The notes under the pieces are model-generated. The model was not told the origin of the DNA, ran no database searches, and saw nothing but the letters and a program-made list of their open reading frames with translations. Of a DNA stretch of 64,000 nt, positions 26,181 to 33,686 are shown in pieces. A program made the translations under genes and the position numbers. Positions within the stretch are counted from its first letter, which is position 1; each line of letters starts with the position of its first letter. The stretch is taken from contig OX597818.1 in NCBI GenBank assembly GCA_951406725.2, positions 42,470,001 through 42,534,000 of the forward strand, read 5' to 3'. Source of the DNA: Octopus vulgaris (lineage: Eukaryota).

Positions 26181-26182
<2 letters not shown>

Positions 26183-26518
26183 TAGTTATCTATATGTCAA
26201 GGAAAAGATGCACTTGTATATCTGTCAGTAGAGAGGGTATGTTATCCAAAATGTATAGTATTAAATATCCATCACGGCTGATCTTACCAATCGGTTTCGC
26301 ATAAAGAATAGAATGGAGTGTTAGGTAACAAACTGATTCTATAATTTATACTCATCAGAGCTAGCCGATATGGAAGCGATCCCTTCACTATATTTGCTAA
26401 CTCTGATGAGCGTAAATTATATAATCAGTTCATTACCTAACACACCATTATATTCTTTATATGAAACCAATTGATAAGATCAGCTGTGATTGGTATTTAA
26501 TACTATACATTTTGGATA

Positions 26519-26519
<1 letters not shown>
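26181..26519. mobile_element. Non-coding head-to-head double-hammerhead element in (TG)n
   Basis: Arms 26242-26366 and 26395-26519 are inverted; each carries CTGATGA...GAAAC; a second copy lies at 33355-33686. Confidence 0.85.
26276..26366 (-). ncRNA. Type I hammerhead with extended stem II
   Basis: GGCTagCT-CTGATGA-GTATAAA tt ATAGAAT...ATTCTAT tc TTTATGC-GAA-ACC gatt GGT-A-AGatcAGCC. Confidence 0.8.
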
Positions 26520-26560
<41 letters not shown>

Positions 26561-26569
26561 CCGTATGAG

Positions 26570-26872
26570 TTAGAGGTTAAGAAGCCATCTAAGGGATATT
26601 AAATATCCAATATACTAGTGATTGTTTACCTACATATTCATAACCAGGTGTTTACTATTGCATGGCAATATTGCAATTGAATACTAGGTATAGGTGGGGG
26701 TAAATTAGACATTTACCCAGGATTTATAAGGCCATGAAGAAAGTGGAGAGGATATACAATTGACAAACATCAGCCAGTAACCATTCAGTTATATCTATTT
26801 ATTAATTGATTACAAACATATGTGTAAGAGATACAAGTAAATGAATGAAAGAAGCCAATAAGTAAGTAAACA

Positions 26873-26915
<43 letters not shown>

Positions 26916-26943
26916 TTATATGTATGTATGTATGTATGTATGC

Positions 26944-26979
<36 letters not shown>

Positions 26980-27200
26980 GAATAATAATAGATGAGTGTA
27001 CAGAGACTGATCTCTACACTCAGCTATTATTATCCATTTATTTCTATACATATATCTGTTTACGTACTTATTAGTTTATTTCATTTGTTTACTTGTATCA
27101 CTTACACATATGTTTCTATTCAATTAATAAATAGATATAATTCAATGTTTACTGGTTGATGTTTGTCGATTGTATATCCCACGCATTTTCTTAATTGCCT
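26570..27200. repeat. Repeat family D-related element with internal inverted repeat (26735-26870 / 27060-27200)
   Basis: ggatatacaattgacaaacatcagccagtaa pairs with ttactggttgatgtttgtcgattgtatatcc. Confidence 0.7.
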
Positions 27201-27227
27201 CATATGTATATATATATATATATATAA

Positions 27228-28180
27228 CGGGAAGCTTTATGAAAATAGACAAAAGACGAAGGCAGGTGGAATACAAACAAATAATTGTATTAGTATGGCG
27301 CTCAGGAAATATAAATAAAACAAGTCTTTAACGTTTCGAGCCTATGCTTTTCAACAGAAAGATACACAGAGAAAAAACACAGAAAGAAGGAGAGAAAAAA
27401 AAATTTTGCGTGCAGAAGCTGACGAATCAACATGGCGATCTGATTTCGGCCAGAAGTCAAAGATCAAACATGAGACGCAAGAGCGAAATTAGGGGAGATA
27501 ATGGGGTTGAATGACCTAACTCCAACATAAGAGTGTGTGTGTGTGTATGAGAAGAGTGTGTGTGTGTGTGTGTATGAGAGAGTGTGTGTGTGTGTATGAG
27601 AGGTCTGGACGTGTGTATGTATATATGATGTGATGTGTAAAGTCGTATGGTGTAGTGTAGAGAGAGGAGGGGGGAGGGGGAGAAGGAAAGGGGGGAAGAG
27701 GGGAGAAGGAAAGGGGAGAAGAGGAGGGGGAGAAGGAAGGAGAGGAGGGGAGGGGAGAGGAGGAGGGAGGAAAGAGGGAGAGGGGGAGAGAGAGAAGGGG
27801 AGTGAGGGAGCAGAGGGATGGGGAAGAGGGAAGAAGGAGGGAGGGAGAAAGAGGGAAGGAGAAAGAGGGAAGGAGAAAGAGGGAAGAAGGGAAGAGGAGT
27901 AGGGGTGAAAGGATGAAGGACTGAAGAGAAGTAGGGGTCGGGGGGAGGTTAGATGAGGAGGGGGAGGGGGTTTAGATGAGGAGGGGGAGAGTTGAGACCA
28001 AATGGCGTATAAGAGCGAAGAGAGAAGATTAATTCCTGTTCACGGCGCAAACGGGAATCCGGATGGCCTCTGTGTAAGGACAAACCGAACACAGACAGGT
28101 GTTGCAAGGAGTGACCGGTGGAGCGGAAATGGCGTGAGACCGGTGTGTCGTTCGCAAGGCAGATGTCACGAAGGTGTTCT
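27228..28180 (-). mobile_element. 5'-truncated PLE: GIY-YIG C-terminus, low-complexity 3' UTR and HHR-like motif (27325-27362)
   Basis: SEHLRDI...[13 protein letters not shown]...[21 protein letters not shown] is a typical PLE GIY-YIG end; both ends lie in (TA)n. Confidence 0.85.
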
Positions 28181-28251
28181 GATATATGTGTGTGTGCATA
28201 TATATATGTGTGTCTGTATATATATATATGTATACATATACATATATATAT

Positions 28252-28298
<47 letters not shown>

Positions 28299-28877
28299 CA
28301 CACACATATATATTTATATATATGTATGTATGTCTCTGTGTGTGTATATATATACATGTATACATATATACTCACATATATACATATATGCAAAAACATA
28401 CATACACACACATACAGTACATGTGTGTGTGAGTGTGTTTGTGTGTGTGTGTCTTTGTGTTTGTGGTGTGTTTGTCTCTCTTGACTGTTTGATAACTGGT
28501 GCTGGTTTGCTTATGTCCTTGTAACATGGTGGTTTAAACAAAAAAACAAAATCAGATCATGCCCCAGCATGATCACAGTCCAATAACTAAAACAAATAAA
28601 ACGTAAAAGGAAACATTCTACAAACTTGTTAAGTGAGTAATAATACATCTAAATCTAAATTTTTATCAAGATACTGCTTTCAACAAACATCATGTACCTT
28701 TCAAGAACCATTTTAAAAACACTAGAAATGTCAAAATTATTTTTCCTACTTCTTGAGATAAAATATTGCATTATGTGTAACTTTCAGTTATCTGGTGTTC
28801 TTTAACCAGTTTAACTGGTTAATGCACTTAGTGTTTGTGAACCAAAAGTTTGTATAAATATGTATGTATGTATGTAT

Positions 28878-31008: not shown

Positions 31009-31044
<36 letters not shown>

Positions 31045-31278
31045 TTTATTTTTATTTATTTATTTATTTATTTATTAAATATATATAACTATCAAAAAGT
31101 ATTAAAAAGTTTAAAATAAGATATTAAACTTTTTAATACTTTTTGATAGTTATATATATATTTAAAAAAATATTATTAAATAAATAAATAAATAAAAAAT
31201 AAAAATAAAAATAAAAATAAATATATATATATATATATATATAAATTTATAAAAATAAATTAATAATTTTAAATTTTT

Positions 31279-31314
<36 letters not shown>

Positions 31315-31619
31315 CATGCTAGCATGGAAAGCGGACGTTAAATGATGATGATATATATATATATATAAATTAATAATTTTTAATTTTTAACTTTAAATTT
31401 AAATAATTTAAATTTCGAATTTTATATTTTATATATTTTGTATATTATATTAATTAATTTTATTTCTATGTTTTGGCTTATGTTTTTCCCTATTTGATTT
31501 GCTTAATAGTGGTTTTATCTCTAATTTAATTTATATTTATACTGTACAATTAGATTTAATCCTAAATTTAATTTTTCCCTGTAAGTTTGGATTTACTCCC
31601 TAATGTTATTATTATTATA

Positions 31620-31755
31620 TATTTCTATCGAAGAGCGTAGGCTCGAAACGTAAAAGACTTGTTCTATTTGTATTCCTGAGCGCCATACTAATACATTTGT
31701 TTGTTTGTACTCCACCTGCCTTCGTCTTTTGTTTATTTTCGTAAACCTTCCCATT
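31620..31755 (+). mobile_element. PLE 3' terminal fragment with HHR-like motif (family of 27228-28180)
   Basis: gaaGAGCgtagGCTCgaaacgtaaaaga...tcctgagcgccatactaatac. Confidence 0.7.
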
Positions 31756-31780
31756 ATATATATATATATATATATATACA

Positions 31781-31811
<31 letters not shown>

Positions 31812-32159
31812 TCACCCGCACATGCACACAGCAGATAGAAACACATGCAAATACATATGTTCACATATAAATGCATGAATATACATACTCACATTTACTG
31901 ATCATACATGTATAAATACACACACACACACACAAATGCCCATACAATCAATAACACATGTAACTGATGTACCCAGCTGACATATACATCTGTATGTTTG
32001 CTCATGTGAGTGCCCACACAACACATGCATAGCCATCAGACACCCACATCCACACACTCATACATCAGATATAAACACAGACACACACACCCCCACCCCA
32101 CCCCCATTCACACAAACACACACTTCTTTCAAACAATATGTCCCACCCATCTGTGCTGA

Positions 32160-33030
32160 ATTCTCAACAGCATGCTTCTGAAATTGGATATACCTTTTGA
32201 TATTATGTTACAAATATTGCACAGACAGCACGTGTAAGGTTTCACGTTTCTTTATATGTCTGCAGTAGGGAGTTTATGCTTCTGCCCCATACAAATGTAG
32301 GCTCAAAATACAAGTTTTGTATATACTTGTTGTTTTCAGATTGACACCATGCTCATCCCACAAACAATGGGAAAGTTTTCTAAAAGAATTTGTAGCTTTA
32401 GATATTCTAATATTGATTTTTTTCATCAAGGGTATTCCTAACCCTTTCGTTACCAACCCGGCTGAAACCAGCTCTGGCTCTGTAGTACTAATGTTTTATT
32501 TTCATAAGTTTTAAATTAAAATCTTCCACCAAACCCCCGTCACAACTTAGCTTAACGATGACTAAATCATTTTACTAAATTCTTTGTTATCATCATCATT
32601 TAACGTCCGTTTTCCATGCTAGCATGGGTTGGACGGTTCGACCGGGGTCTGGTAAGCCATGGAGGCTGCACCAGGCTCTAGTCTGATTTGACAGTGTTTC
32701 TACAGCTGGATGCCCTTCCTAACGCCAACCACTCCGTGAGTGTAGTGGGTGTTGTTATATTCAAAATAATTGAAAGAAACACAAAGCATCTCAAAATAAA
32801 AACAGTAACGAAAGGGTTAAAGTTCACTGTACACCCAAGATATTTAACTGATCTGACCCATTCGAGTGGCTTGTTATCAATCATCACAGTTGAATCTTGA
32901 GTATTCTCTGCTCTAGGCTTTGGGTGGAATAAAACTTCAGTCTTGCTGCTGATAATCGGTGCAAATGTTCAAGCTACCACAACAAACCTATTGACTACTT
33001 CTTGTATGAGATATCAAATTGAAGCCTGCA
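32160..33030 (-). mobile_element. Decayed RTE LINE fragment split by a piggyBac-type MITE
   Basis: IDNKPLEWVRSVKYLGCTVN, then INIRISKATNSFRKL...LYGAEA. Confidence 0.7.
32442..32816. mobile_element. piggyBac-type MITE containing an RTE-tail repeat (32588-32750, minus)
   Basis: TIR CCCTTTCGTTAC / GTAACGAAAGGG with ctaa / TTAA flanks. Confidence 0.75.
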
Positions 33031-33039
33031 AAGTCATGT

Positions 33040-33260
33040 ATTGGGTTGTCCGGAAAGTTCATGCCGATTTATAGTAGCTTACTTTTCGACTTATTTGAGA
33101 ACATGGTTGAGTCCATAAAATAGGATTTGACTACACCTCCATTTAGAGCACAGTTTAAGCTATATTTTCGTGGAAGAAGGTTTATGTTCCTATAACCTGT
33201 GTTAATTCTGTAACCCTTTAAAATGGAAGATAAGAAAGTTCATTTTCGGTACTTGATACT
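33040..33260 (+). mobile_element. Mariner 5' end
   Basis: ta-ttgggttgtccggaaagttc TIR-like end, then MEDKKVHFRYLIL truncated by (TA)n. Confidence 0.65.
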
Positions 33261-33265
33261 ATATA

Positions 33266-33336
<71 letters not shown>

Positions 33337-33354
33337 GTGTGTGTGTGAGTGTGT

Positions 33355-33686
33355 TTGTCATCTAAGGGACCATATGTCAGGGAAAAGATTCATTTCTATA
33401 TCTGTCAGTAGAGAGTGTATGTTATCCGAAATGTATAGTATCAAATATCTATCACAGCTGGTCTTATCAATCAGTTTCGTGTAAAGAATACAATGGAGTG
33501 TTAGGTAAAAAACCAATTATATAATTAACGCACATTGGAGTTAGCCGAACCCTTCCATATTGGCTAACTCTGATGAGCGTAAATTATATAATTGGTTTGT
33601 TACCTATCACTCCATTATATTCTTTATACAAAACCATTTGGTAAGATCAGCCATAATAGATATTTAATACTATACATTTCAGATAA
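33355..33686. mobile_element. Second head-to-head double-hammerhead element (cores mutated)
   Basis: Same arms, tail and right junction (agataa|tgtgtg) as 26181-26519, with a shorter spacer. Confidence 0.85.

What the first reader, a model, noticed from the sequence alone, without database searches (positions are those of the whole stretch)
26181..33686. Two 330-bp non-coding double-hammerhead hairpins with stereotyped asymmetric ends in (TG)n
Seen: 26181-26519 and 33355-33686 each have two divergent HHR units and no ORF. Both have a ~60-nt tail on one arm only and the same opposite junction (gataa|tgtgtg), but different central spacers. The HHR has a ~55-nt extended stem II and a stem I internal loop. 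Inference: a minimal non-autonomous PLE parasite whose hairpin is built at each insertion and which targets TG repeats; it would probably be misfiled as a MITE.
Basis: partly seen in the sequence, partly recalled or inferred. Interest (0 to 1): 0.75.

Follow-up and report, generated by a model that had tools for sequence, protein, structure and literature searches.

The report
Penelope-type hammerhead hairpin insertions
The two small hairpin-shaped repeats are decayed members of an abundant repeat family whose copies share their outer ends but differ at the fold; they are likely the tail ends of a Penelope-like jumping gene, carrying a predicted self-cutting RNA motif and laid down head to head in simple repeats, which is a known insertion pattern.

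Summary
Both elements are real: 82% identical palindromes (arms 80-85% complementary) with a 61-67-nt extension on one arm only, set in (TG)n, with no internal ORF over 34 aa. Only 1 of the 4 arms keeps an intact type I hammerhead; the others are decayed, and the two 'different spacers' differ by one 11-nt gap. Public contigs of four coded organisms show an abundant family (980-1488 contigs per run). Its outer ends recur at two sites, one mostly joined to (TA)n. At least 11 different fold points were seen, each in one contig per run, and almost nothing shares E1's centre. That argues against a fixed-spacer MITE and fits hairpins made at insertion. A 6.5-kb insertion in the same window has the same layout around a Penelope-type endonuclease remnant. 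Inverted 5'-truncated copies, a one-sided tail, microsatellite targets and opposite-strand hammerhead pairs are all published features of Penelope-like elements (PLEs). Whether the template is a short non-autonomous RNA or the end of a full element is untested, because no genome or partner was available. Unusual features are the 53-nt two-part stem II and the long tail. Verdict: new family of a known kind.

The parts
26139..26180 (.). (TG)n left flank of E1
   Evidence: sequence
26181..26241 (-). E1 tail: 61-nt extension of the left arm only (3' end of the inferred RNA); lacks 8 nt present in E2
   Evidence: family loose ends at 26192 resemble E2's end
26242..26380 (-). E1 left arm, 139 nt, read outward on the minus strand
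26275..26368 (-). Intact type I hammerhead motif: stem I 5' strand 26368-26359, CUGAUGA 26358-26352, 53-nt stem II 26351-26299, GAAA 26298-26295, helix III 26295-26286 (self-complementary, 10 bp as a dimer), predicted cut between 26285 and 26284
   Evidence: cleavage not tested
26372..26389 (.). E1 fold centre: near-perfect palindrome with no spacer, axis at 26380/26381
   Evidence: depth here is about that of 0-2 loci
26381..26519 (+). E1 right arm, untailed; CUGAUGA 26403-26409, GAAA 26463-26466, helix III broken
26520..26556 (.). (TG)n right flank of E1, followed directly by the tailed end of another asymmetric inverted repeat
33338..33354 (.). Short TG-rich left flank of E2, behind a (TA)n run
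33355..33421 (-). E2 tail, 67 nt
33422..33549 (-). E2 left arm, 11 nt shorter at the centre than in E1; catalytic CUGAUGA box decayed (33538-33532)
33550..33686 (+). E2 right arm, untailed; CUGAUGA 33570-33576 kept, GAAA box mutated
33687..33705 (.). (TG)n right flank of E2
2800..9300 (.). Comparator, a different family: 6.5-kb inverted insertion with hammerhead-like cores at 2927(-) and 9246(+), a ~73-nt tail on the left arm only, (TA)-rich flanks, and a PLE-type endonuclease remnant (5508-5975) at its centre

Best explanation
E1 and E2 are decayed members of an abundant repeat family with recurring outer ends and copy-specific centres, and they are likely Penelope-like-element (PLE) insertion products in which two short cDNA copies of the hammerhead-bearing 3' end were joined head to head at the moment of insertion. 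Inferred steps: (1) a PLE endonuclease nicks both strands of a (TA)n or (TG)n tract; (2) the PLE reverse transcriptase starts one cDNA at the far end of the tail and the other at an internal site 61-67 nt upstream, which leaves a tail on one arm only; both start sites are AC-rich and could pair with the repeat; (3) both cDNAs stop early, at or before a point about 20 nt upstream of the hammerhead core, and are joined 5' to 5', so the centre differs from copy to copy; (4) the finished hairpin is probably a dead end, because a read-through transcript is predicted to bury the ribozyme in one long duplex, and CpG decay then erodes it. Shown: anatomy, abundance, recurring ends, variable centres, conserved core in the family consensus. 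Not shown: the enzyme, the template's length (short non-coding RNA or end of a full PLE; I put these at about 40:60), target-site duplication status, cleavage.
For: Family data (4 of the 24 listed runs laid, organisms A-D, likeness 80): 980-1488 contigs per run. Summed arm depth is about 1,400-1,800 times my estimate of single-locus depth (the tool warns this is no copy number). Loose ends pile up at 26192 (19 and 22 contigs in X1 and X7, resembling E2's tail end, then TG/TA repeats) and at 26238 (27, 23, 43, 20 contigs, then (TA)n). Depth near the distal arm end is 1.9-3.2 times tail depth, near the 2:1 expected for one tail per hairpin. Of 15 joints printed (14 more hidden), 9 read as fold centres, and table 5c adds 2. 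Each is one contig per run at single-locus depth; 6 of the 11 recur in 2-3 organisms; none equals the E1 or E2 centre. Centre depth is 4.7-118 against peak arm depth 9,000-88,000, although centre-spanning contigs are detectable (pieces 14 and 24, 7 differences from E1). Letters in other copies restore Watson-Crick pairs in stems II and III, and the loose-end consensus at 26344 holds the intact CUGAUGA box. In-window comparator 2800-9300 has the same layout around a remnant 42% identical to the C-terminal part of P0001 (E 1e-19), a protein I read as a PLE RT-endonuclease from its YRDD and Cys/YIG motifs (recalled; Pfam gave no significant hit). Literature: inverted 5'-truncated copy, tail at one end only and microsatellite bias (PMC8557442); tail = stretch between two RT start sites, both strands cut and extended in vitro (PMC11167929); head-to-head junctions with palindromes (PMC3846280); opposite-strand hammerhead pairs 100-700 bp apart (PMC4209133).
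Against: No RT or endonuclease sequence was linked to this family: no genome is held, and pattern scans found only one chance match. The best match between E1 and the window's coding PLE remnants is 28 nt at 82% (E 0.06 against the window). E1 and E2 share minority letters (26234, 26241, 26332 and lack of a base that most copies carry near 26345) and their centres differ by one gap, so these two may descend from one ready-made hairpin. Their right arms share 5 derived letters against 3 within each element, which is not significant (P 0.07 for that pair, 0.40 for the best pair). Variable centres could also come from later deletions at hairpin tips. The joint table cannot show copies with long centres, does not give the direction of opposite-strand joints, and marks 2 of the 11 as 'between: not known'. 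The tail (61-67 nt) is longer than the 30-40 bp in the papers read.
Confidence: 0.8

Rival explanations
1. The template is a dedicated short (~210-nt) non-coding hammerhead RNA mobilised in trans by a PLE, a dispersed hairpin-forming relative of animal retrozymes.
For: Three of the four window arms start at about the same point 20-24 nt upstream of the core. Depth collapses from 138-2,164 at 26364-26376 to 4.7-118 at 26377-26389. All 11 centres seen are short. A second subfamily keeps the core-proximal sequence and inner loop with a different stem II (loose ends at 26298/26301, 13-43 contigs per run). PLE machinery can act in trans on pLTR-flanked sequence (PMC3846280), and animal retrozymes are proposed PLE derivatives (10.64898/2026.07.22.740005).
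Against: A mismatch in E1 at 26377 and the reference's own fold would clip alignments there whatever lies upstream; loose ends at that point were among the 685 not printed. Long-centred copies are invisible to the joint table. A pile-up just upstream of the core would also fit the 5' edge of the pLTR of an autonomous element.
Confidence: 0.33
2. A fixed palindromic master (MITE-like, DDE-mobilised, or a hairpin copied as a unit) that happens to carry a hammerhead; variable centres arose later by deletion.
For: E1 and E2 share subfamily letters and a centre that differs by one 11-nt gap between short direct repeats. (TA)n flanks are also used by some DNA transposons (PMC4486113, search listing and abstract start only).
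Against: The inverted repeats are not terminal, since 61-67 nt lie outside them on one side. Almost no other locus shares the centre in four runs. Many fold points fall inside or below the hammerhead on either arm. The same layout surrounds a PLE-type endonuclease remnant in the window.
Confidence: 0.12
3. A non-autonomous Helitron/Helentron-type element with subterminal inverted repeats and microsatellites, the hammerhead match being incidental (family traits recalled, not from a call).
For: Asymmetric ends, subterminal inverted repeat, association with simple repeats.
Against: The inverted repeat makes up the whole body; the core boxes and paired stems are conserved in the family consensus; 0 of 100 shuffles gave a strict descriptor match; centres vary.
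Confidence: 0.05

Closest known systems
Inverted, 5'-truncated insertions of endonuclease-bearing Penelope-like elements with a one-sided tail (Craig et al. 2021, PMC8557442; Arkhipova et al. 2013, PMC3846280; passages read)
   Same: Head-to-head inverted copies, palindrome at the junction, extension on one end only, microsatellite targets that hide any duplication.
   Different: No coding sequence at all in E1/E2; tail 61-67 nt against 30-40 bp; no partner ORF identified.
PLE hammerheads, including opposite-strand pairs 100-700 bp apart in Schistosoma (Cervera and de la Pena 2014, PMC4209133; parts 1-2 of 4 read)
   Same: Type I core, G10.1-C11.1 pair, 7-bp basal stem II, short self-complementary helix III able to form a dimer, two motifs on opposite strands about 45 nt apart core to core.
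   Different: [quoted passage not shown]
Animal non-LTR retrozymes (Cervera and de la Pena 2020, PMC7229834, passages; Li et al. 2026, 10.64898/2026.07.22.740005, parts 1-3 of 5)
   Same: Non-coding, AT-rich, few hundred bases, type I hammerhead, probable PLE dependence.
   Different: Retrozymes are head-to-tail tandem units released as circles by two same-strand ribozymes; here the motifs face away from each other on opposite strands.
MITEs
   Same: Short, non-coding, palindromic, high copy; likely to be filed as such by structure-based tools (inference).
   Different: Inverted repeats not terminal, centre not fixed, hammerhead core, no duplication or transposase shown.

Membership tests
Type I hammerhead ribozyme | CUGANGA and GAAA boxes, NUH cut site, three helices | tested here: met
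   E1 left arm only; family loose-end consensus holds CUGAUGA; the other three arms fail
Type I hammerhead ribozyme | Self-cleavage | not testable with these tools
   no assay
Type I hammerhead ribozyme | Match to an Rfam hammerhead model | tested here: not met
   no hammerhead among 9 matches at E<=10 for E1; the long stem II may explain it (inference)
PLE-type hammerhead (PMC4209133) | G10.1-C11.1 pair, long stem II, palindromic helix III/loop 3 | tested here: met
   G-C closes stem II; the 10-nt helix III segment pairs fully with itself, -12.4 kcal/mol
PLE-type hammerhead (PMC4209133) | [quoted passage not shown] | tested here: not met
   G after CUGAUGA pairs directly with the C before GAAA
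PLE insertion | Inverted 5'-truncated copy joined head to head, variable truncation | tested here: met
   (11 fold points)
PLE insertion | Tail on one end only | tested here: met
   (ends at 26192 and 26238); longer than the published 30-40 bp
PLE insertion | Microsatellite or AT-rich target | tested here: met
   loose ends in (TA)n/(TG)n; 3 of 4 window ends within 2 nt of a run, the fourth 9 nt away; 9% of the window lies within 3 nt of such a run. No empty site seen
PLE insertion | Sequence shared with a PLE RT/GIY-YIG element | tested here: inconclusive
   only the window and prokaryote/viral/metagenome collections could be searched; no significant match; no genome
Non-LTR retrozyme | Head-to-tail tandem units with same-strand ribozymes | tested here: not met
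   E1 and E2 are head-to-head pairs; tandem arrays elsewhere in the genome not excluded
Non-LTR retrozyme | Circular RNA monomer | not testable with these tools
   no raw RNA reads
MITE | Terminal inverted repeats at both ends and a fixed internal sequence | tested here: not met
   61-67 nt outside the repeat on one side; centres vary
MITE | Target-site duplication and DDE partner | not testable with these tools
   microsatellite flanks, no empty sites, no genome

The most novel reading that the evidence does not exclude
The family is a self-standing ~210-nt non-coding hammerhead RNA, hitch-hiking on a PLE enzyme, that spreads as over a thousand dispersed hairpins built anew at each insertion and not as tandem arrays: a third architecture of retrozyme-like parasite, with an extended two-part stem II that differs between subfamilies. 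Its many copy-specific centres would give a natural read-out of how PLE reverse transcription starts twice and joins the two cDNAs.
Probability: 0.33. Interest if true: 0.55.

Novelty: new member of a known kind. Interest (0 to 1): 0.33.

Why it matters
How PLEs make inverted insertions with a one-sided tail is still an open mechanistic question (PMC8557442, PMC11167929). A family with roughly a thousand or more tiny copies, two recurring outer ends and copy-specific folds would let models (two-strand priming against self-priming) be tested from sequence alone. It also shows a class of repeat that annotation tools would probably label MITE or unknown. The hammerhead with a 53-nt stem II escapes Rfam, so such motifs are likely undercounted. 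None of this is a new kind of system unless the short non-autonomous template is proven.

Tried and rejected
No whole genome is held, so copies were studied only through contigs of public runs. Rfam scans gave no hammerhead and no tRNA for the 39240-39560 segment. Pattern scans: metagenome 1 match, viral 0, genome 0, then 0 and 0 with a second pattern. The one match (L001) is a 29-nt chance likeness in unrelated, apparently prokaryotic DNA and was dropped. Pfam did not recognise the three PLE-like remnants of the window or P0001. The four-arm test for 'arms identical at insertion' against 'fixed left and right arms' was inconclusive. The 28-nt likeness between E1's stem II loop and the comparator's 3' region (E 0.06 against the window, 0.003 in a small set) was not taken as homology. 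No RNA holder was listed. Six of the 15 printed joints were set aside as within-arm indels or stem II variants. The repeat finder on the window was swamped by microsatellites. Look-ups of earlier findings by sequence, by place and by a long word list returned nothing. Paper searches listed no description of this family or of hairpin-form non-autonomous PLEs; the library lacks most subscription papers, Repbase and Dfam were not searched, and no supplements were opened (those of PMC4209133 and PMC13282606 could hold this motif or family).
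Full report
Setting. The window is AT-rich, microsatellite-rich animal DNA. From recalled repeat types it looks like an octopus; no call names the host, and no genome is held.

Observation. E1 (26181-26519) and E2 (33355-33686) align at 82% and each is a palindrome: E1 arms 85%, E2 arms 80%. Both have an unpaired extension on the left arm (61 and 67 nt), the same right junction, and TG repeats outside. No ATG ORF inside either exceeds 34 aa. Read outward from the centre, the four arms are 83-86% identical in all six pairs and many differences sit at CpG-type columns. 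The E1 left arm carries a full type I hammerhead whose lowest-energy fold is the three-way junction, with a 53-nt stem II of two helices and an inner loop, a 3-bp helix III and a stem I with an internal loop. A strict descriptor found it once in the window and never in 100 shuffles; a loose one found 3 loci against a mean of 0.18. The other three arms are broken in helix III, CUGAUGA or GAAA. The centres are not unrelated spacers: E2's is E1's with an 11-nt gap. Rfam does not see the motif.

The family. Twenty of 24 listed runs hold words of E1, in four coded organisms and 12 studies. I laid one run of each organism on 26169-26533. 980-1488 contigs were laid per run. Peak arm depth is about 1,400-1,800 times my estimate of single-locus depth, a rough sign of a thousand or more arms and not a copy number. 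Outer ends recur: at 26192, where the loose letters resemble E2's tail end and run into TG/TA repeats (19 and 22 contigs in two runs), and at 26238, where 20-43 contigs per run run into (TA)n; smaller piles lie at 26247-26257. Only 24 loose-end rows were printed and 685 were not. Other copies restore paired letters in stems II and III and keep CUGAUGA; most carry one extra base near 26345 that all four window arms lack. A second subfamily has a different stem II next to GAAA. The centre is not shared: depth 4.7-118 against 9,000-88,000 at the arm peak, while contigs that cross E1's own centre with 7 differences are seen in two runs. Nine of 15 printed joints, plus 2 in table 5c, read as fold points with different arm lengths; each is one contig per run at single-locus depth, and 6 of the 11 recur in more than one organism, so those insertions are old. 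Limits: short contigs hide long-centred copies, the direction of opposite-strand joints is not given, and later deletions can also vary a hairpin tip.

E1 and E2 themselves. They share minority letters at 26234, 26241 and 26332 and the missing base, so they belong to one minor subfamily. Their flanks are unrelated, so this is not a segmental duplication. Shared derived letters number 5 between the right arms and 3 within each element, which does not separate 'built separately' from 'copied as a hairpin' (P 0.07-0.40).

Neighbourhood. Three other elements in the window have the same asymmetric layout. The 2800-9300 insertion has hammerhead-like cores on both arms, a ~73-nt tail on one, TA-rich flanks, and at its centre a remnant 42% identical to part of P0001, which I read as a PLE RT-endonuclease from recalled motifs; Pfam did not confirm it. 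26557-27205 and 44899-45241 have longer one-sided tails that are 73% alike and no hammerhead core.

Mechanism. The published PLE signature covers each feature: inverted 5'-truncated copy, one-sided tail and microsatellite bias (PMC8557442, passages); cutting and extension of both strands and two RT start sites that bound the tail (PMC11167929, parts 1-2 of 4); head-to-head junctions with palindromes and action in trans (PMC3846280, passages); opposite-strand hammerhead pairs 100-700 bp apart (PMC4209133, parts 1-2 of 4). I infer that two short cDNAs, one begun at the tail's end and one at the internal site, are joined 5' to 5' during insertion. The whole element is predicted to fold into one -173 kcal/mol hairpin, and the two motifs lie on opposite strands, so the self-complementary helix III cannot pair within one transcript. 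The hairpin is therefore likely a product and not the template. Confidence 0.8 for this class of origin. Whether the template is a short non-coding RNA or the end of a coding PLE is open; I put it at about 40:60.

Comparison. It works like a PLE insertion and meets three tested layout features; the link to a PLE protein is inconclusive. It fails the tandem test for non-LTR retrozymes (PMC7229834, passages; 10.64898/2026.07.22.740005, parts 1-3 of 5) and the terminal-repeat and fixed-centre tests for MITEs. An Octopus vulgaris repeat annotation lists Penelope-like and MITE families and has no occurrence of 'hammerhead' in its main text (PMC13282606, passages); its library was not seen. PMC8969392 (passages) notes inverted pLTRs and short 3' extensions as PLE peculiarities. 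Earlier notes of this scan report similar stubs in other genomes; they are unchecked leads and lower the surprise.

Verdict. A real, abundant, probably undescribed family of a known kind. The long two-part stem II, the 61-67-nt tail and the open question of a short template are what keep it above routine debris. Interest 0.33.

Noticed in passing
window 2800-9300: 6.5-kb inverted insertion with nested arms (mostly 97-100% identical), hammerhead-like cores at 2927(-) and 9246(+), one-sided ~73-nt tail and a PLE-type endonuclease remnant at 5508-5975; looks like a young Neptune-type PLE insertion (clade recalled from the Cys motif).
   Followed up: partly
window 85-1530: Broken PLE-like RT C-terminus and endonuclease frames (85-495, 496-978), followed by a long 3' region with a hammerhead-like core at 1376(+) and ending in (TA)n. 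Identity from recalled motifs; Pfam gave no hit.
   Followed up: partly
window 38766-39516: Second non-coding head-to-head pair with hammerhead-like cores (38837-, 39442+). Its centre is a 152-bp palindrome of a tRNA-like head with A- and B-box-like motifs, followed by (AAT)n; the left arm has a ~240-bp insert. A candidate Pol III-driven, hammerhead-bearing PLE passenger. ARAGORN and Rfam did not call a tRNA.
   Followed up: partly
window 26557-27205, 44899-45241, 2529-2716: Related asymmetric inverted repeats with ~170-nt one-sided tails in (TA)n/(TG)n and no hammerhead core; the first abuts E1's right (TG)n. Possibly ends of a hammerhead-free PLE. The first shares two 10-12-nt words with the E1/E2 arm and tail (not significant).
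   Followed up: partly
window 17682-17790: Single compact hammerhead-like motif (+) that passes the loose descriptor, near (TA)n; no partner arm seen.
   Followed up: no
window 45499-45783, 15805-15949, 60431-60843: Other palindromes or inverted pairs without microsatellite flanks or one-sided tails; not classified.
   Followed up: no
window 35552-35864: Short LINE-like 3' fragment between (TA)n runs with a 42-bp fold-back at its 5' end; its CTGATGA pair is not a hammerhead.
   Followed up: no
loose ends at 26298 and 26301: A second large subfamily keeps the GAAA-proximal bases and the inner loop of stem II but has a different, GC-richer stem II; its partner strand was not printed, so compensation could not be checked.
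   Followed up: no
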